This document shows, one piece after another, positions 1 through 7,777 of a stretch of DNA of 51,613 nt. The notes below the pieces were generated by a model. The model was not told the origin of the DNA. It made no database searches and saw only the letters and a program-made list of their open reading frames with translations. Within the stretch, counting starts at the first letter, position 1. Each line of letters opens with the position of its first letter. Source of the stretch: a virus (Duplodnaviria > Caudoviricetes); the IMG/VR virus record IMGVR_UViG_3300011971_000139, positions 1 through 51,613 of that record; one strand, given 5' to 3'. A program made the translations under genes and the position numbers.

Positions 1-822
1 ATTTCTTCCACCACCAATCATTCCAGCGCGGGTGACCGAGTGGTGTGGATTACGAAAGGGACGATATTGAACCAAGGACCCATTGCAATTAAGCAACCCA
101 GAAACACTGTAAAGCTGAGTGACCTCGATACTTTCTTGGTCGCTTAGTAAAGGAAGTATCCCTGCATATGCCTTTGCAAGCAACGTCTTACCTGATCCTG
201 GAGGGCCAAGTAAAACGACGTTATGTCCTCCAGCGGCCGCTATCTCCAAGGCTCGTTTGGCATGCTGTTGCCCATGGACATCCACGAAGTCCACTCTGGG
301 TCTACTGTCTAAGTCTGGTGGTGGAATCCGAGTGATAACATCATCTTCGAACTCGCCCATTTTGTCGATGGTCCTCACGATTTGATCGAGATTGAAGGTA
401 CTATGCGTTGCTAGCCCTGTCACAAGTCGAGCTTCTGCCAAATTATCCGGAGGAATAATCAACTGTAACGGTTCAGTGACGGTCCCTGCTTTTCTTCCTG
501 TTCTTGAGTTCACTTTATCGAGGGTGATTGCCATGGTGAGGACACCAGGAACTGGGCGAAGCGTTCCCTCTAATGAAAGCTCACCTGAAAAAACATATTT
601 TACAAGTTCCGGCGACATGATTTGCTCAGTTGCTGCGAGTATTCCTATGGCAATGGGTAAATCCAGTCCGGAACCTTCTTTCCGTAAATCCGCAGGGGCT
701 AAGTTAACGGTGACCCGCTGTAAAGGAAACTGATATCCAGAATTACGTATCGCTGAACGAACTCGGTCACGGGCCTCTCTCACGGCAGTTGTAGGTAATC
801 CAACTATTTCAAATGTCGGGAC
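1..822 (-). pseudogene. comM: ComM/YifB Mg-chelatase-like AAA+ ATPase lacking about 30 N-terminal codons (interrupted by the prophage); continues off the left edge
   Basis: The minus frame is open from 822 to 1 and reads PTFEIVGLPTTAVREARDRVRSAIRNSGYQFPLQRVTVNLAPADLRKEGSGLDLPIAIGIL...GHNVVLLGPPGSGKTLLA...RPFRNPHHSVT. There is an in-frame TAA at 823-825 and no start codon. Confidence 0.93.
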
Positions 823-3898: not shown

Positions 3899-4426
3899 CT
3901 ATATACTTAGAGCTACCAATAATTTAGACCATGCATCTTCTGTGGATATATTATCGTCAAACTTAATTCTTAAATATCCTAAATAACGTTTTGTGTCCGC
4001 GACATGTTTTGGTTTTCCCTTTGTCTTAATGTGTTTTAGAATTTCTTGACGAAGATAGTTCTTCCTTATCATTCTTATTTTTCTCTTAATAATATAGTGT
4101 GAAGCTATATAAAAAGCTATAAGTACAGATATGTCCAAAGTAATCGACCATAATGAAAGATTATATGAAGATGGTTTTGTGTTTACTAATGAAAGCGCTT
4201 GAAGCATAAAGCCAACGAAAAGGAAGCCAAATCCAATACTTGCTTCAAGTTTTTGAATTAAAGCACCCATCACATAGGCTTCATTAATTCCAAAACTATG
4301 TTTTGGTGCCTCTTCAATAATTCCCTCCAAATTCTTCTTGACTATCCCCCTTGCAAGATACCAGGCTCCTATGATATCTAATATAAGCCCCGTAACACCT
4401 ATTAAGCTCCCAAGTCTCACCAACAA
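3899..4426 (-). CDS. Membrane protein with about 3 TM segments and a basic C-terminus (moron)
   Basis: AAGGGGAG RBS, hydrophobic stretches, AT-rich DNA. Confidence 0.75.
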   Translation of the reverse strand: MLVRLGSLIGVTGLILDIIGAWYLARGIVKKNLEGIIEEAPKHSFGINEAYVMGALIQKLEASIGFGFLFVGFMLQALSLVNTKPSSYNLSLWSITLDISVLIAFYIASHYIIKRKIRMIRKNYLRQEILKHIKTKGKPKHVADTKRYLGYLRIKFDDNISTEDAWSKLLVALSI

Positions 4427-4595
4427 CTCCCCTTAATATTTAAATTTCTATATTCCAGAGATTTATACTCTTTTAACTAATTTACTGGTTTAGACATGAT
4501 CTGTCAACAAAAAAAAGAACCCCCATCGTTTCCGACGAGAGTCATGGAGTACGCTAGGTGGAATTTAACATTGAGTTTAGCTGGTGTGGTACTTA

Positions 4596-4916
4596 TTACC
4601 TAAGTACCACACCAAAAAGAGATGCTATTGAAGCTAATGATCCGACACTACCTAAAATAGTGCTCATTATGCCTAAAATACGTTGTCCTTTATTTTTATC
4701 ACCATTAGTAAAGGAAGCCTTTAAGTCCTCCGCAAGGTACATAGCTTGCTCTTTATTTGAGGCATCAAGTTTCTGTATATCACCTAATAAGTCTGTAAAA
4801 GCCTTTTCAAATTCTTCTGTTTTACCCTGAATTTGGGTATTCCCATCACTCTGAACTGCGATGTTTCCATTAACACTTGCGTTGTTGAAACTGTCCTTAA
4901 CATTCCTATCGCTCAT
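4596..4916 (-). CDS. 106-aa protein with an N/G/S/Q-rich N-terminus, a helical domain and a hydrophobic C-terminal helix; frame open upstream to 5111
   Basis: GGAGGG RBS at 4926-4931, 9 nt before ATG 4916. No stop occurs in this frame until TAA at 5112-5114. Confidence 0.75.
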   Translation of the reverse strand: MSDRNVKDSFNNASVNGNIAVQSDGNTQIQGKTEEFEKAFTDLLGDIQKLDASNKEQAMYLAEDLKASFTNGDKNKGQRILGIMSTILGSVGSLASIASLFGVVLR

Positions 4917-5050
4917 ATCTACATTCCCTCCACTAATACCATTAACAAGAAATAGCTTGTCCACATGCTTAATTACCAAATGCATTCCACTCTTAGACTG
5001 CAGCGCGTCAGTTAGGAATAATCCTGGATTCCAAGGGATTCCTGATTCTC

Positions 5051-5443
5051 TTACACATGTTGCAATTGAAGGAATGAAGTTTTCGTTTTTTTTTGAGAAA
5101 GAATATCTATTTTAAACTCTGGTGTAATTTCAAAAATCGGATAGTAGTCACTGGCCTTAGCTTCAAACTCCTCACCGCAAACTGTACACAATTCTTCTCC
5201 CAGTAAGGGAGCATAAACATAAGGCCCGATTTTACGTATACATGTGTAATTTGGACAACGAAGCTCCCATCTGAGATAGATTTCTCCTGAATCCACTAGT
5301 TCTAATAAGTATTTAAAGGCAACATCCAAGGGAAGGTTAGCATACTTAGCCACAGCAGATGGATAAAAGTATCTGACAATGCTTATGGCTGCAGTGTCAA
5401 CAAACTCTCTGACTTTGCGTTTTCCCTGATATATGGGTTGCAT
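5051..5443 (-). CDS. Winged-helix-like plus Zn-ribbon protein
   Basis: Strong RBS GGGGGAGG. Sequence FYPSAVAKYANLPLDVAFKYLLELVDSG followed by CPNYTC...CTVCG. Confidence 0.8.
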   Translation of the reverse strand: MQPIYQGKRKVREFVDTAAISIVRYFYPSAVAKYANLPLDVAFKYLLELVDSGEIYLRWELRCPNYTCIRKIGPYVYAPLLGEELCTVCGEEFEAKASDYYPIFEITPEFKIDILSQKKTKTSFLQLQHV

Positions 5444-5462
5444 ATTAACCTCCCCCTTTCCA

Positions 5463-6533
5463 TTACGTTAGAATGAATTTTTCTCGAACGAACTTGATTA
5501 CCGACTCAGTAGCCGGCGTATTAAAGTATATGCTGTTGGTTTTCAAACCGACCCTGATTGTATAAGTTTTTTCTATGCTTTCTTCTGGACAGTTAAAACG
5601 CACAAAACCGTTTTGATGGTCAAGGAATGGGTCAAATGAATCATATAAGGGTAAGCCCCTTAACTCATGGTCCCCCCCTAAACCAACCCTCTCCATTCCT
5701 GCTAATATAAGTGCCGTAAATGGAACTGCAAGAGTTTGTTCATCAAAAAGTTCTTCAGCTTTCTTAAGGCATTCCTCAAGAACAGTGATGTCCTTGGTTA
5801 CAAAATAACTATTTAATGCTGTGAGGATTGAGCCAACAGCCTTTGCTTGGTCTTCCCCGAAGTTATCTAATATTAGCTCGGGTTTAGAATTCGTATCAAT
5901 TAGCTCTCCTTTAAGAGCATCCGCAATTTCTCCAATACTCAAGAGAAAAGGAGCAGTAACCGGTTCTAGGGTGATTTCCTTATCTATTATTCGAGCTAGA
6001 GCTGAAGCTACTTTATCCGCTTTTCTTGAATCAGACCTTACTTCAATGATTCCCAATTCTTCATTCACATAAACCGTAGTAATCTCACTTATTGGGACAA
6101 TGTTCATATCTGTCCCATAAAATTCTTTTCTAACACCATTTTTATACATAAATCTTAAATAATATTCATTATCACTATTCCCTTTTGATCCAGCAATTAG
6201 ACACGGAGTAGTTGTTAAGTCTTCTTTTCGCGGAACAATTACTTGCTCAAAAGGATCGAATCCGCAATTCTTTTTAATTAGCCCCTTCACATCTGATAGG
6301 TCATCGGAATGGAACCAGGTAACAGAAACCTGGCCGGCTAAAAGCTTATCCTTAGATTTATCAAGGATAGCGCCTGAACCCGAATTTTTCCTTAGAAACT
6401 CCCATACTCTTTGAGCTAATTGATAAGCTGTACCCGAGGAATCTAGGTCTAAATCGGTACAAATTTCCGCCAGAGTTATTTTAGGTAGCTTAACTATATC
6501 ATTAACAAATACGATTTGAGGTATAGAAAACAT
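5463..6533 (-). CDS. 356-aa uncharacterised protein with an N-terminal SAP-like helix-extended-helix motif
   Basis: GAGGTG RBS. LPKITLAEICTDLDLDSSGTAYQLAQRVWEFL fits the SAP pattern. Confidence 0.8.
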   Translation of the reverse strand: MFSIPQIVFVNDIVKLPKITLAEICTDLDLDSSGTAYQLAQRVWEFLRKNSGSGAILDKSKDKLLAGQVSVTWFHSDDLSDVKGLIKKNCGFDPFEQVIVPRKEDLTTTPCLIAGSKGNSDNEYYLRFMYKNGVRKEFYGTDMNIVPISEITTVYVNEELGIIEVRSDSRKADKVASALARIIDKEITLEPVTAPFLLSIGEIADALKGELIDTNSKPELILDNFGEDQAKAVGSILTALNSYFVTKDITVLEECLKKAEELFDEQTLAVPFTALILAGMERVGLGGDHELRGLPLYDSFDPFLDHQNGFVRFNCPEESIEKTYTIRVGLKTNSIYFNTPATESVIKFVREKFILT

Positions 6534-6566
6534 GTTAACACCTCGATACTATTTTTAAGATTATTA

Positions 6567-6593
6567 CTTCGACATTTAATCCAAAATACCTTT
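6567..6593 (-). promoter_or_regulatory. sigma-H-like promoter overlapping a Spo0A box
   Basis: The minus strand reads AAAGGTATT-11nt-GTCGAAG, with TGTCGAA at 6568-6574. Confidence 0.55.
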
Positions 6594-6912
6594 AAATTAA
6601 TACTCAAGGAATCTTTTATTCATGGAGAGAAACACAAAATAAAATAAAAAACCCCCTCGCAAGGAGGGGTATTAGGAGGTAGAATTTGAAAAAGTTCTAG
6701 GTCTATATTTCAACCGTAGAATTCCAAGCTGTTATATCTATCATAAACCCTACTTGTTACCCTTCCGTGACCTTCGTATTAAGAATATGTGAAGCCTTAG
6801 TTTAACTAGCAAACAACAAACGAACGAACGCATTGGGATTCCGTGTTGGCATAATTACCAACGAAACCGGAGAAATTATGGATAAGGTATTTAGGAAGGG
6901 ATTGGAGCAAAC

Positions 6913-7280
6913 TTGGAAATTAGACAAAATGACATTATTCCCTTGGGATTGGAAAATTCGTGCGCTCCGATAAGATCATTGCGTTGGAGCCAATCGAAGA
7001 AAACCGAGGTCCCGGACGGAGAACGCGTGTGTATGTAGAACAAATAAGTACTCCCCTAATTGCTTCACGTACCGAAACAGCGGTTTTAGCCAATATAGTG
7101 GAAACCCCCAAAGAAGTTATGGAAGCGACTGCTGCCCTAGAACTTTTACATGATATCCATGATAATATTCATCAGATTGGTCCTATGCTTCGAAAAAGCA
7201 TCAGAAAAGAAGCCCAACTTGATTTGGATAAAATAGAAAGACGAATTGAAGAAATTCTAAAACATGAGATTGAGTTTTAA
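6913..7280 (+). pseudogene. RemA/DUF370-like protein with a C-terminal extension, frameshifted by a 1-nt deletion at 6949-6950
   Basis: TTG start with GGAG gives MEIRQNDIIPLG[tt]GKFVRSDKIIALEP...GRRTRVYV...LIASRT, resembling the RemA pattern GFGN.V...RII...GRRTR. Confidence 0.6.
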
Positions 7281-7319
7281 GCCAACCTGATGTCTTGGAA
7301 AATATGCGAACAATCAAAC

Positions 7320-7355
7320 AAAAAAAGCCCTCCACCAATTAAGGCGAGGGCTTTC
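7320..7355. terminator. Bidirectional terminator ending the late operon
   Basis: AAAAAAAGCCCTC...GAGGGCTTT lies between convergent genes. Confidence 0.75.
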
Positions 7356-7366
7356 ATCATGTCTAT

Positions 7367-7777
7367 TTATGCAGATTGTTGAACCGGATCGGCTGCCGGT
7401 ATTGAAACAGGGGTAACAGCTGGCACAACAGGATCGGGAACCAAAGTTACACTCAATTTACCTATTTCTTGTTTCATAATAGTTTTAATTAAATCAATGA
7501 TGGATTCCATAGGAAGGTTTTTACCGAAGCCCGTCTTTTCTATTTCAGCCTGAATAATACTAGACACTGAATTAGTAAAGTCCTCAACAGGGAAGGTTGC
7601 AACCTTCTGCTGCTTGGCATCTACAAAGCCCTGGCCAAGGATATAACTCGCCGTCAGCCCCACCAGGTACAAAACGTCAGCCGATGGGATTCCCAGCGTG
7701 AAAATGAAGTTAGCCACTACTAGGAGAGCTGTGAGGATAAAGGCCCATAGTTTACGAGATTTGAGTTTTTCTGACAT
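7367..7777 (-). CDS. Holin-like membrane protein
   Basis: SRKLW motif and 2 TM segments, directly after the endolysin. Confidence 0.7.
   Translation of the reverse strand: MSEKLKSRKLWAFILTALLVVANFIFTLGIPSADVLYLVGLTASYILGQGFVDAKQQKVATFPVEDFTNSVSSIIQAEIEKTGFGKNLPMESIIDLIKTIMKQEIGKLSVTLVPDPVVPAVTPVSIPAADPVQQSA

What the first reader, a model, noticed from the sequence alone, without database searches (positions are those of the whole stretch)
4596..6593. Three-ORF accessory operon with an A9 slippery tract that could fuse a wHTH/Zn-ribbon protein to an amyloid-motif-like effector: candidate undescribed defence system
Seen: a sigma-H-like promoter precedes a 356-aa SAP-motif protein, a 130-aa wHTH/Zn-ribbon protein and a third ORF. 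The third frame is open from 5111, well upstream of its own RBS/ATG (4916), and overlaps the second gene across CAA AAA AAA ACG (A9, 5086-5094). A -1 ribosomal shift or one extra A gives a ~282-aa fusion (...SQKK-NENFIPSIATC...HVDKLFLVNGISGGNVD-MSDRNVKDSFNNASVNGNIAVQSDGNTQIQG...). A possible stem (ATTCCT...AGGAAT with inner TTGCA/TGTAA) starts 9 nt after the slip site. Established: A AAA AAA is a slippery heptamer, A9 can support transcriptional slippage, and prophage morons often encode defence systems. Inference: the operon makes three products (short sensor, sensor-effector fusion, free effector). The shared N/G/S-rich beta-prone segment could let the fusion nucleate polymerisation of the free effector, whose hydrophobic C-terminal helix could attack membranes, by analogy to HET-S/RHIM-type signalling. 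Caveat: other 1-nt homopolymer lesions occur in this window, so A9 may be a miscalled A10.
Basis: partly seen in the sequence, partly recalled or inferred. Interest (0 to 1): 0.85.

Follow-up and report, generated by a model that had tools for sequence, protein, structure and literature searches.

The report
Conserved poly-A slip site fusing two genes
A run of nine A's between two small prophage genes is kept in all related gene clusters we could read and most likely lets the cell make both a short DNA-binding-type protein and a longer version fused to a membrane-type module, in a three-gene cassette that looks like an undescribed phage-exclusion system.

Summary
A9 lies at 5086-5094. The downstream frame is -1 and open from 5111. 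One extra A gives a 282-aa fusion.

The surprise is the conservation. I read 22 homologous loci, which fall into 16 lineages. Twenty carry an A run of 9-12 at this junction, in all three codon phases. In 199 kb these are the only A/T runs of 9 or more.

The effector frame is -1 in 16 loci, +1 in 1 and fused in frame in 4. Of 150 family representatives, 37 are natural fusions.

The roughly 50-codon linker often has no start codon, yet it is under purifying selection (dN/dS 0.15-0.40). No RNA structure is conserved after the run.

Best reading: this is a selected slippage site, most likely RNA-polymerase slippage. DNA-level phase variation is the main rival. It yields a short and a fused product, and a conserved internal SD/ATG adds a free effector.

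Gene 1 is a SAP domain plus an RdgC-like fold, the fold of lambda RexA. The effector module is related to the C-terminus of PADLOC candidate PDC-M14B.

A defence function is inferred only. The amyloid idea and the proposed stem are unsupported. The scan noted the same cassette in another genome (e1-6215346).

The parts
6653..6669 (-). Terminator-like hairpin plus T-run that ends the upstream unit. It marks the 5' boundary of the cassette's transcription unit.
   Evidence: pattern scan only
5463..6533 (-). Gene 1 (356 aa): an N-terminal SAP-like domain (residues ~2-66) followed by an RdgC-like fold (residues ~65-356). It belongs to PHROG 38742, of unknown function.
   Evidence: phrog_38742, E 8e-28; SAP_new25, E 0.0069, below cut-off; model pLDDT 81, pTM 0.75; E. 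coli RdgC 2owl_B: Z 11.1, rmsd 3.8, 203 aligned; PIAS1 SAP: Z 7.5
5051..5443 (-). Gene 2, standard reading (130 aa). It has a conserved N-terminal domain with a Cys-x4-Cys ... Cys-x2-Cys/His pattern (presumed Zn ribbon), then the K-run and a 12-aa basic tail.
   Evidence: invariant F26, P28, C63, C68, C86, P102 in 22 sequences
5086..5094 (-). A9 slippage tract at the junction of the gene-2 domain and the effector frame.
4596..5093 (-). Effector frame (-1 relative to gene 2), 165 codons from the run to the stop. It comprises a linker and beta-strand region (to about 4917), an N/G/S-rich segment, then a four-helix region that ends in a hydrophobic helix rich in small residues. Read after gene-2 codons 1-119 it gives the 282-aa fusion.
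4926..4931 (-). Internal Shine-Dalgarno-like GGAGGG, formed by the conserved Gly-Gly codons.
4596..4916 (-). Free short effector (106 aa) from the internal ATG at 4916. This is the form called in the source record.
   Evidence: (P0003)
4518..4543 (-). Terminator-like hairpin (11 pairs) plus T8 that ends the cassette.

Best explanation
This is a self-contained three-gene accessory cassette of Bacillota prophages and genomic islands.

Gene 1 is a DNA-binding-type protein (SAP domain + RdgC-like ring fold, the fold of lambda RexA). Gene 2 encodes a small Cys4-type domain that ends in a lysine run written as A9-A12. The third reading frame encodes a linker, an N/G-rich segment and a helical module with a hydrophobic or amphipathic C-terminal helix.

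The A-run is a selected slippage site. Standard decoding gives the short gene-2 protein (130 aa here). When RNA polymerase adds one A, the same N-terminal domain is joined to the effector module (282 aa here). Less likely routes are a ribosome slipping -1 on the run, or replication changing the tract. A conserved internal SD/ATG additionally gives the free 106-aa effector.

I infer, but have not shown, that the cassette works like Rex-type exclusion. In that model the RdgC/RexA-like protein and the gene-2 domain sense foreign or abnormal DNA, and the fusion couples that signal to a membrane-acting module whose bulk is supplied by the free effector.

Shown by comparison: the conserved tract, the frame relationships, the translated linker and the natural fusions. 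Inferred: the level at which slippage occurs, the product ratios, the membrane action and the defence role.
For: (1) The tract is conserved as nucleotides. An A-run of 9 or more sits at the junction in 20 of 22 loci. The exceptions are the two identical degraded loci L008/L009, which have A8GA7. The 21 loci with an ORF1 fall into 16 ORF1 clusters at 70% identity. The run occurs in codon phases 0, 1 and 2. Lys codons elsewhere in these genes are only 305 AAA to 121 AAG. In 199,318 bases of window plus loci, the only other A/T run of 9 or more is a second A9 three bases after the junction run in L021.

(2) Frames. The effector frame is -1 and open from the run to its end (157-184 codons) in 16 of 21 loci where it can be read. 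It is +1 in 1 locus (L017) and in frame in 4 (L015 at 293 aa, L020 at 306 aa, and L008/L009).

(3) The linker is translated. L003, L006, L007, L011, L013 and L017 have no ATG/GTG/TTG in that frame for 52-70 codons after the run, and L018 has none for 49. The linker aligns across loci, including the in-frame fusions. Between the gene-2 stop and the internal Met, dN/dS is 0.32 (WIN/L001), 0.15 (L012/L014), 0.40 (L018/L019) and 0.38 (L005/L008).

(4) Family-wide. A profile of the gene-2 domain found 481 proteins at E <= 1e-3. Of the 150 best cluster representatives, 37 are 208-306 aa fusions, all 37 with KK or KKK at the junction. The other 113 are short. Fused and split states are scattered over the domain tree: 28 changes against 33.1 +/- 1.8 in 200 shuffles.

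(5) Against a classic -1 PRF. There is no conserved structure in the 55 nt after the run (mean z 0.006 over 20 loci). The minimum run length of 9 equals the length at which slippage-prone A/T runs are selected against in many bacteria (PMC1088944; abstract and passages read).

(6) Internal start. An ATG or TTG at the aligned position, with a 4-nt or longer SD core, occurs in 11 of 20 loci.

(7) Function leads. Gene 1 has an RdgC-like fold (Z 11.1). Lambda RexA is reported to be RdgC-like and to partner a membrane protein (PMC11077077; passages read). The effector module of subtype loci and of 5 of 10 scanned natural fusions matches the C-terminus of PADLOC candidate PDC-M14B (E 2e-10 to 3e-3). 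The window's subtype is homologous to that subtype (hhalign 96% probability, E 2.9e-9).

The window's C-terminal 19-aa hydropathy is 2.04.

Neighbours are a phage lysis cassette (window, L005, L017), an integrase (L007), restriction or pPIWI genes (L014, L019, L012), an SNF2 helicase (L022) and IS21 (L013), out of 16 contexts looked at.
Against: - No RNA, protein or phenotype data exist. No RNA run was listed for this DNA, and contigs cannot show minor length variants.
- The close relatives keep the frame-0 tail of gene 2 (KKTKxxYLQLQxM, 4 of 4).
- L001 and L010 have a GTG/TTG at the gene-2 stop, so coupled re-initiation could translate part of the linker in some loci.
- The scatter of fused and split states fits DNA-level switching as well as RNA-level slippage.
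- Five of 16 contexts are ordinary housekeeping neighbours.
- Gene 1 and gene 2 match no PADLOC model.
- The window's own effector hits PADLOC only weakly (LeoBC, E 0.0019).
- C-terminal hydropathy is below 1.6 in 14 of the 21 sequences, so a true transmembrane anchor is not general.
- At the internal start column only 25 of 58 aligned rows have Met.
Confidence: 0.6

Rival explanations
1. Contingency locus. The A-tract is kept because replication slippage switches the population between a fused (ON) and a split (OFF) genotype, as in phase-variable restriction or Pgl-type defence genes. The fusion is the only active effector form, and RNA-level slippage is incidental.
For: All three frame states occur in nature. 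Close relatives differ in state: L018/L019 are split and L020 is fused at 78-80% ORF1 identity. Fused and split states are almost randomly scattered on the domain tree (28 changes against 33.1 in shuffles). Tract length varies from 9 to 12.
Against: The states are very unequal: 16 loci need +1 A and only 1 needs -1 A. That asymmetry is not expected from free switching, but it is expected if the -1 configuration still delivers fusion protein. The split state predominates (113 of 150 representatives) yet the linker stays under purifying selection. Two assemblies of the window's population show only A9, although contigs hide minor variants. The conserved internal SD/ATG argues for a designed multi-product locus.
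Confidence: 0.22
2. Classical programmed -1 ribosomal frameshift on A AAA AAA, stimulated by a downstream stem-loop.
For: A slippery heptamer in phase is present in every locus because the run is 9 or longer. The effector frame is -1 in 16 of 21 loci. In the window a hairpin can form 10 nt after the run.
Against: No structure is conserved after the run (mean z 0.006; window z -0.69; L001 z +1.17). No consistent upstream SD-like element appears in the 20 nt before the run (listing). Seven bases would suffice for such a shift, yet no locus has fewer than 9 uninterrupted A's except the degraded L008/L009. L017 needs the opposite shift.
Confidence: 0.08
3. Ordinary operon of three separate genes. 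The A-run merely encodes conserved lysines, and the third gene starts at its own codon: the GTG/ATG at the gene-2 stop as in L001, or ATG 4985 or 4916 here. The open -1 frame upstream of that start is chance.
For: Gene callers annotate homologues as separate 130-aa and 152-aa or 133-aa proteins. In L001 a GTG overlaps the TGA of gene 2. The frame-0 tail is conserved among the four closest relatives.
Against: Seven loci have no start codon in the linker, yet the linker is conserved and selected and is part of an uninterrupted ORF in natural fusions. The window itself has GTA where L001 has GTG. AAA-only lysine coding in 15 of 16 lineages is improbable at 72% AAA usage (about 0.37 per KKK). The run also shifts codon phase between loci.
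Confidence: 0.06
4. Artefact or fresh pseudogene: a single fused gene broken by a one-base homopolymer error or mutation in this assembly.
For: Homopolymers are error-prone. In-frame fused versions exist elsewhere.
Against: Independent contigs from two runs agree on A9. Sixteen loci from isolates, MAGs and viral contigs share the -1 state. The downstream module has dN/dS of 0.08-0.21.
Confidence: 0.02

Closest known systems
Programmed transcriptional slippage sites: Thermus thermophilus dnaX (A9, tau/gamma), Shigella mxiE (two ORFs joined by one extra base) and IS-element A-runs, as summarised in PMC1088944 (abstract and passages read)
   Same: A homopolymer of nine or more in the sense strand. 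Two products share an N-terminus. As in mxiE and the IS elements, the longer product needs one untemplated base to join two overlapping ORFs. In the in-frame loci (L015, L020) slippage would give the shorter product instead, as in dnaX.
   Different: The gene family and biology are different. The tract length drifts between 9 and 12, and all three frame states occur among relatives. A third product from an internal start is likely. No transcript data exist here.
Lambda RexA/RexB and the Rex-like exclusion systems of actinobacteriophages (PMC11077077, passages read)
   Same: Prophage-borne and expressed as a small accessory unit. One partner has an RdgC / Iml3-Chl4-type fold of the kind reported for the DNA-binding RexA. 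My model's top matches are RdgC (Z 11.1), Iml3 (Z 7.3) and CENP-L/N. The other partner is membrane-directed.
   Different: Gene 1 has no detectable sequence similarity to a RexA family: no Pfam hit beyond weak SAP at E <= 1. RexA itself was not among the listed structural matches. Gene 1 carries an extra SAP domain. The membrane partner is not a four-helix RexB but a helical module with one C-terminal hydrophobic helix, joined by recoding to a Cys4 domain. The cassette sits beside the lysis genes, not beside the repressor.
PADLOC phage-defence candidate PDC-M14, component B. It is one of 145 untested candidates from guilt-by-embedding (bioRxiv 10.1101/2024.01.29.577857, passages read). Its composition is in supplements that I could not open.
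   Same: The C-terminal ~110 residues of the effector module match profile positions ~140-267 of 267. This holds for the L016 and L011 effector frames (E 2.1e-10 and 1e-4) and for 5 of the 10 natural fusions scanned (best E 1.9e-11). Overall protein length is similar to the fusions.
   Different: The N-terminal ~140 profile positions do not match the gene-2 domain. Gene 1 matches no PADLOC model (0 of 29 members with a meaningful hit). The window's own effector subtype does not hit PDC-M14B directly and is linked only through hhalign. PDC-M14 itself is untested.
E. coli RdgC (PDB 2OWL)
   Same: Best structural match of gene 1 residues 65-356 (Z 11.1, rmsd 3.8 A, 203 aligned, 8% identity). It stands about 3.5 Z above the next unrelated rows. 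Phage proteins annotated as RdgC also appear in the BFVD search.
   Different: No sequence-level match was found. The N-terminal SAP domain is added. Ring dimerisation and RecA-related activity were not tested. The genomic role differs, as this is an accessory cassette.
Phase-variable defence genes with homopolymer or repeat tracts (type I/III restriction 'phasevarions', the Streptomyces Pgl G-tract). This comparison is recalled, not checked in any call.
   Same: A hypermutable tract lies inside a defence-type locus, and relatives are found in different frame states.
   Different: Here the tract joins two domains rather than simply switching one gene on or off. The out-of-frame state is the commonest, and its downstream frame stays under selection.
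HET-S/HET-s, RHIM and bacterial amyloid signalling (Bell/BASS).
   Same: Only in outline: a short N/G/S-rich segment lies next to a small helical, possibly membrane-active domain, and two proteins share that segment.
   Different: The domain order is reversed. No family match was found. The segment is simply low-confidence in the model (pLDDT 35-37). Sharing of the segment is trivial because both products are read from the same DNA. Nothing here tests amyloid formation.

Membership tests
Programmed transcriptional slippage site | Homopolymeric A or T run long enough for RNA-polymerase slippage (about 9 in many bacteria) | tested here: met
   A9 in the window. Runs of 9-12 in 20 of 22 loci. The length criterion comes from PMC1088944.
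Programmed transcriptional slippage site | The run is conserved at nucleotide level among diverged homologues, beyond what the encoded residues require | tested here: met
   15 of 16 ORF1 lineages keep a run of 9 or more. The run occurs in codon phases 0, 1 and 2. AAA makes up only 72% of Lys codons elsewhere in these genes. No other A/T run of 9 or more occurs in 199 kb apart from a second one at the L021 junction.
Programmed transcriptional slippage site | The downstream frame lacks its own start yet is open, conserved and under purifying selection | tested here: met
   (linker dN/dS 0.15-0.40; seven loci have no start codon for 49-70 codons).
Programmed transcriptional slippage site | The mRNA population is heterogeneous in run length while the DNA is homogeneous | not testable with these tools
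   No RNA run holds this DNA. Only contigs could be laid.
Structure-stimulated -1 programmed ribosomal frameshift | Slippery X XXY YYZ heptamer in the zero-frame phase | tested here: met
   A AAA AAA is available in phase in every locus.
Structure-stimulated -1 programmed ribosomal frameshift | Conserved stimulatory element (downstream hairpin or pseudoknot, or upstream SD-like sequence) | tested here: not met
   The 55 nt after the run give a mean z of 0.006 over 20 loci; the window gives -0.69. No common SD-like motif appears in the 20 nt before the run (listing).
Phase-variable contingency locus | Close relatives differ in tract-determined frame state | tested here: met
   L018/L019 (A10, split) against L020 (A9, fused) at 78-80% ORF1 identity. 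There are 28 state changes on the tree of 149 representatives.
Phase-variable contingency locus | Tract-length heterogeneity within one population | tested here: inconclusive
   Contigs of two runs show only A9. Contigs drop minor variants.
Rex exclusion system (RexA/RexB) | RexA-family protein by sequence | tested here: not met
   No Pfam, NCBIfam or PADLOC match for gene 1 other than weak SAP.
Rex exclusion system (RexA/RexB) | RdgC / Iml3-Chl4-type fold in the soluble partner | tested here: met
   (RdgC Z 11.1; Iml3 Z 7.3; CENP-L Z 6.5). The fold relationship of RexA is taken from PMC11077077. RexA itself is not in the listed rows.
Rex exclusion system (RexA/RexB) | RexB-type inner-membrane partner with four transmembrane helices | tested here: not met
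   The partner has one C-terminal hydrophobic helix at most.
Rex exclusion system (RexA/RexB) | Exclusion of superinfecting phage | not testable with these tools
RdgC family | Sequence membership (Pfam RdgC) | tested here: not met
   No hit at E <= 1. A profile search of PDB sequences found only weak SAP-type matches.
RdgC family | RdgC three-dimensional fold over most of the domain | tested here: met
   2owl_B: Z 11.1, rmsd 3.8, 203 of 301 residues, model residues 65-356. Foldseek 2owy_A: E 8.4e-4.
SAP domain | SAP helix-extended loop-helix motif at the N-terminus of gene 1 | tested here: met
   Structural matches to the PIAS1 SAP (Z 7.5, 65 aligned), the FAN1 SAP (Z 6.9) and other SAP domains. 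Pfam SAP_new25 scores E 0.0069, below its cut-off.
PADLOC candidate PDC-M14 | Component B profile match | tested here: inconclusive
   Only the C-terminal part matches, and only in one effector subtype and 5 of 10 scanned fusions. The window's effector is linked only by hhalign.
PADLOC candidate PDC-M14 | Component A present next to B | tested here: inconclusive
   Gene 1 matches no PADLOC model. What PDC-M14A is could not be read because the supplements are closed.
Amyloid signalling pairs (HET-S/HET-s, BASS/Bell) | Recognisable amyloid motif family, or a confident beta-arch or beta-solenoid prediction | tested here: inconclusive
   No family hit. The N/G-rich segment has pLDDT 35-37 in the monomer model.

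The most novel reading that the evidence does not exclude
The cassette is a new anti-phage abortive-infection family. A polymerase-slippage tract acts as a built-in stoichiometer. It makes a few sensor-effector fusions among many free effectors and free sensor domains. When the RdgC/RexA-like gene-1 protein and the Cys4 domain engage invading DNA, the rare fusions seed assembly of the free effector, through the shared N/G-rich segment, into a membrane-disrupting oligomer. Drift of the tract between frame states would let lineages retune, or switch off, an autotoxic system.
Probability: 0.15. Interest if true: 0.9.

Novelty: new variant of a known kind. Interest (0 to 1): 0.72.

Why it matters
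Annotation pipelines call this locus three unrelated hypothetical genes. Comparison shows a fourth, hidden product made by recoding, conserved across at least 16 lineages of Bacillota and their prophages.

That would add a clear cellular, non-IS example to the short list of bacterial genes that use homopolymer slippage to join two ORFs. It would also place recoding inside a defence-like cassette, where product ratios (sensor, sensor-effector, effector) are likely to matter, as they do for RexA:RexB.

The locus also gives a handle on a widespread unknown family (PHROG 38742; 481 gene-2 relatives) and on the untested PADLOC candidate PDC-M14.

The predictions are cheap to test with amplicon cDNA sequencing, a tagged western blot and three synonymous or locked alleles.

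Tried and rejected
- DNA search of phage records with the whole cassette: no match. tblastn of gene 1 against phages: no match.
- tblastn of gene 2 found only a stand-alone paralogue. It covers 74% of the query at 37% identity, in the early region of Paenibacillus larvae phages, with no gene-1 or effector partner. I did not pursue it.
- Early scans of viral contigs and genome contigs with the effector alignment, and of viral contigs with gene 1 alone, found nothing.
- My first working idea was two coupled genes with a GTGA stop/start overlap, as in L001, and a lost GTG start in the window. I dropped it when the wider set showed no start codon in many loci.
- Fold searches with the effector-frame model gave only generic four-helix-bundle matches (Foldseek best E 0.13; VIA best Z 9.0, below the level that is informative for helical bundles).
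- ESM Atlas look-alikes of the L020 fusion: feature scores of 0.76, which is uninformative. The structural hit is the family's own 130-aa cluster.
- NCBIfam: only chance-level hits.
- PDB sequence searches with the gene-1 and gene-2 profiles: only weak SAP-type (E 0.04) and chance rows.
- Complex prediction of gene 1 with the gene-2 domain: no answer (scores 0.02, 0.54, 0.02). I do not use this as evidence either way.
- No RNA holder was listed for this DNA. Run X3 laid nothing.
- Weak single hits were not taken further: LeoBC for the window's effector (E 0.0019), AbiTi for P0105 (E 0.0018) and cyclase models for L020 (E 0.006).
- Literature searches for slippage or frameshifting in defence systems and for PDC-M14 found no description of this cassette. 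These cover open-access papers and bioRxiv only.
- The sigma-H promoter and the wHTH fold of gene 2 were not tested.

Full report
**What is in the window.**
On the minus strand, between two terminator-like hairpins (6669-6653 and 4543-4518), lie three reading frames:
- ORF1, 5463-6533 (356 aa);
- ORF2, 5051-5443 (130 aa);
- a third frame open from 5111 to its stop at 4596-4598.

ORF2 reads CAA AAA AAA ACG across an A9 run at 5086-5094. The third frame is its -1 frame. One extra A, or a -1 slip, joins ORF2 residues 1-119 to 163 further residues, giving a 282-aa protein.

An SD-like GGAGGG (4926-4931) precedes ATG 4916, and the source record calls the 106-aa product from that ATG (P0003).

The window is an IMG/VR provirus. 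The cassette follows the holin and amidase genes and lies near the end of the prophage.

**Is A9 real?**
Logan's separate assemblies of two runs from one soil study cover the site without a difference (X1 over 4400-6051, X2 over 4995-5237). X1 may be the source sample. A JGI metagenome contig (L001), 72% identical in the effector protein, has the same A9 and the same frame relationship.

The run is the only homopolymer of 9 or more in the whole 51.6-kb window.

**First hypothesis, then the turn.**
The three closest effector homologues are called as separate proteins of 152, 152 and 133 aa. Their ORF2 partners keep the frame-0 tail KKTKxxYLQLQxM (4 of 4). In L001 a GTG start overlaps the ORF2 stop (GTGA), whereas the window has GTAA. 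This looked like an ordinary coupled operon with a lost start codon.

ORF1 has a larger family (55 hits). I used it to fetch context:
- 7 loci from viral contigs;
- 13 loci from Bacillota genomes, including Desulfosporosinus, Neomoorella, Paenibacillus, Neobacillus, Ureibacillus, Bacillus, Scopulibacillus and Exiguobacterium, plus three MAGs.

All of them keep the order ORF1, ORF2, effector frame.

**The comparative result.**
- *Run length.* Of the 22 sequences (window, L001, L003-L022), 20 have an uninterrupted A run at the same junction. It is A9 in 13 (two A9 runs in L021), A10 in 5, A11 in 1 and A12 in 1. The identical, degraded loci L008/L009 have A8GA7.
- *Independence.* The 21 loci with an ORF1 form 16 clusters at 70% identity.
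- *Codon phase.* The run starts in codon phase 0, 1 or 2 of ORF2, depending on the locus. What is conserved is therefore the nucleotide run, not a particular codon string.
- *Codon usage.* Elsewhere in these genes lysine is AAA 305 times and AAG 121 times. Three AAA codons in a row are expected in only about 0.37 of KKK motifs.
- *Background.* In 199,318 bases of window plus loci there is one other A/T run of 9 or more, and it sits three bases after the junction run of L021.

**Frames.**
Where the downstream sequence can be read (21 sequences; L004 ends 42 nt after the run), the effector frame has three states:
- -1, and open from the run for 157-184 codons, in 16;
- +1 in 1 (L017, A10);
- in frame in 4: L015 (293 aa, A9), L020 (306 aa, A9), and L008/L009 (238 aa, then broken, with ORF1 also broken).

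**Is the linker translated?**
The 45-60 codons between the run and the conserved internal Met align across loci, including the natural fusions.

L003, L006, L007, L011, L013 and L017 have no ATG, GTG or TTG in that frame for 52-70 codons, and L018 has none for 49.

I measured dN/dS on the part of the linker that lies after the ORF2 stop and before the internal Met:

| Pair | Linker dN/dS |
|---|---|
| WIN/L001 | 0.32 |
| L012/L014 | 0.15 |
| L018/L019 | 0.40 |
| L005/L008 | 0.38 |

The downstream module gives 0.08-0.21 on the pairs where dS was not saturated. More distant pairs were saturated and gave no ratio.

A start codon near the ORF2 stop occurs in about half of the split loci, which is roughly what chance gives. 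Fusion to ORF2 is therefore the only route to the linker that is available in all loci.

**Family-wide check.**
A profile of the ORF2 domain (A7, 22 sequences) was searched against 1.84 billion cluster representatives. It found 481 proteins at E <= 1e-3.

Of the best 150:
- 37 are 208-306 aa, and all 37 have KK or KKK at residues 90-150;
- 113 are shorter than 200 aa, and 92 of these have KK or KKK followed by a short tail.

I built a FastTree of the N-terminal 112 residues (149 rows; one row under 100 aa was dropped). On it the long/short state changes at least 28 times, against 33.1 +/- 1.8 (minimum 28) in 200 label shuffles. The tree is short and weakly resolved, so the count is rough. Even so, the fused form is clearly not one clade.

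**Which mechanism?**
The 55 nt after the run show no conserved structure. Mean z against shuffles is 0.006 over 20 loci.

Three observations argue against a structure-stimulated -1 ribosomal frameshift:
- no conserved downstream structure;
- a minimum run of 9, where 7 bases would suffice for a ribosomal slip;
- the +1 locus L017.

They fit slippage on the homopolymer itself. Baranov and colleagues report that nine is the length at which A/T runs are selected against in many bacteria. They also report that dnaX of Thermus, mxiE of Shigella and IS elements use such runs (PMC1088944, abstract and passages).

Slippage during replication (phase variation) is the serious rival, because relatives occupy all three states. 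However, the strong excess of the 'needs +1 A' state (16 to 1), the persistence of selection on the linker in split loci, and the conserved internal start all suggest that the split genotype is itself functional and still supplies some fusion. I cannot separate RNA-level from DNA-level slippage, or from ribosome sliding on poly-A, without read-level data.

**Third product.**
At the aligned internal position, 11 of 20 loci have ATG or TTG preceded by a 4-nt or longer SD core. Three of these are TTG (L006, L010, L015). Over 58 aligned rows the column holds M 25, L 10, V 8, I 3, gap 10 and other 2.

An internal start that gives a free effector of about 105-115 aa is therefore likely but not proven. 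The hydrophobic residue could instead be structural.

**What the proteins are.**
*ORF1.*
- Family: PHROG 38742, of unknown function (E 8e-28).
- Model: pLDDT 81, pTM 0.75.
- N-terminal SAP domain: PIAS1 SAP Z 7.5; FAN1 and other SAP domains Z 5-7.
- RdgC-like fold over residues 65-356: E. coli RdgC 2owl_B Z 11.1, rmsd 3.8, 203 aligned. Next come Iml3 (Z 7.3) and CENP-L/N (Z about 6). Foldseek gives CENP-N at 4e-5 and RdgC at 8.4e-4. BFVD lists phage proteins annotated RdgC.
- The crystal-structure paper on lambda RexA reports that RexA shares this RdgC / Iml3-Chl4 fold, binds DNA non-specifically and works with the membrane protein RexB (PMC11077077, passages).

*ORF2.* It has invariant Cys63, Cys68 and Cys86, with a fourth Cys or His, so it is presumably a zinc ribbon. 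The wHTH was not tested.

*Effector frame.*
- It models poorly (pLDDT 64.5) apart from a confident helical region at residues 89-160. The N/G-rich part has pLDDT 35-37.
- In the window, the last 19 residues but one have a Kyte-Doolittle mean of 2.04. In the other loci the best window ranges from 0.96 to 2.09.
- There are two C-terminal subtypes: one rich in small residues and hydrophobic, one amphipathic with WK..F. They are homologous (hhalign 96%, E 2.9e-9, 124 columns).
- The amphipathic subtype and 5 of 10 scanned natural fusions match the C-terminal part of PADLOC candidate PDC-M14B (E 2.1e-10 to 2.8e-3).
- ORF1 and ORF2 match nothing in PADLOC.

**Context.**
I looked at 16 contexts:
- The cassette follows a phage lysis cassette in 3 (window, L005, L017).
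- It adjoins an integrase in 1 (L007).
- It adjoins restriction-type or pPIWI-associated genes in 3 (L014, L019, L012).
- It adjoins an SNF2 helicase in 1 (L022) and IS21 in 1 (L013).
- The neighbours I scanned are housekeeping genes in 5 (L010, L011, L015, L020, L021).
- In the other 2 (L006, L016) the scanned neighbour had no Pfam hit or was a trypsin-like peptidase.

This is the pattern of a mobile accessory, defence-like module, but it is association only.

**Verdict.**
The specific mechanism (stem-stimulated ribosomal shift) and the amyloid analogy are not supported.

I put about 0.85 on the tract being a selected device that yields the fusion. Given that, my split over the level of slippage is about 0.55 RNA polymerase, 0.25 DNA phase variation and 0.1 ribosome. 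I put about 0.5 on an anti-phage or exclusion role.

That note is consistent with the pattern found here but is not independent evidence.

Noticed in passing
window 1-783 (minus strand, runs off the window): An open frame with a Walker-A-type GPPGSGKT motif looks like a host AAA+ gene at the prophage edge. An earlier scan note calls it comM. The name is from that note and from recall, not from a search of mine.
   Followed up: no
L008 and L009, 3959-5972: Two viral contigs of one source carry an identical degraded copy of the cassette. ORF1 is split in two. The junction is A8GA7 with the fusion in frame. The effector is then broken again. An IS3-like transposase pair lies just downstream (6114-7687).
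   Followed up: partly
L021 4446-4466: The junction carries two A9 runs separated by CTC. This is the only other A/T run of 9 or more in 199 kb of fetched sequence.
   Followed up: partly
L023 (Paenibacillus phage Heath) 2854-3345, gene HEATH_43: A stand-alone relative of the gene-2 domain (37% identity over 74% of the query) sits among early regulators (XRE, HTH, antirepressor) of Paenibacillus larvae phages. It has no gene-1 or effector partner.
   Followed up: partly
window 3899-4426 (minus strand): A 175-aa multi-pass hydrophobic protein lies directly downstream of the cassette, behind its own sigma-70-like site (4507-4479, 10 of 12 matches). It has no PADLOC match. In L001 the downstream neighbour is different (a 70-aa HTH protein), so this gene is not part of the conserved unit.
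   Followed up: partly
window 5672-5678: A G7 run inside ORF1 (coding ...LGGD...). It is the longest G/C homopolymer in the window. ORF1 is intact across it.
   Followed up: no
L014 136-2970 and 5521-6597: In Paenibacillus lactis the cassette is sandwiched between a type III restriction res-like helicase-nuclease and a pPIWI_RE-associated REase-domain protein. This is the clearest defence-island context in the set.
   Followed up: partly
P0105 residues 185-289: The effector part of one natural fusion gives a weak full-length match to the small lactococcal abortive-infection protein AbiTi (E 0.0018, profile positions 2-107 of 114). It may be a distant relative of the effector module.
   Followed up: no
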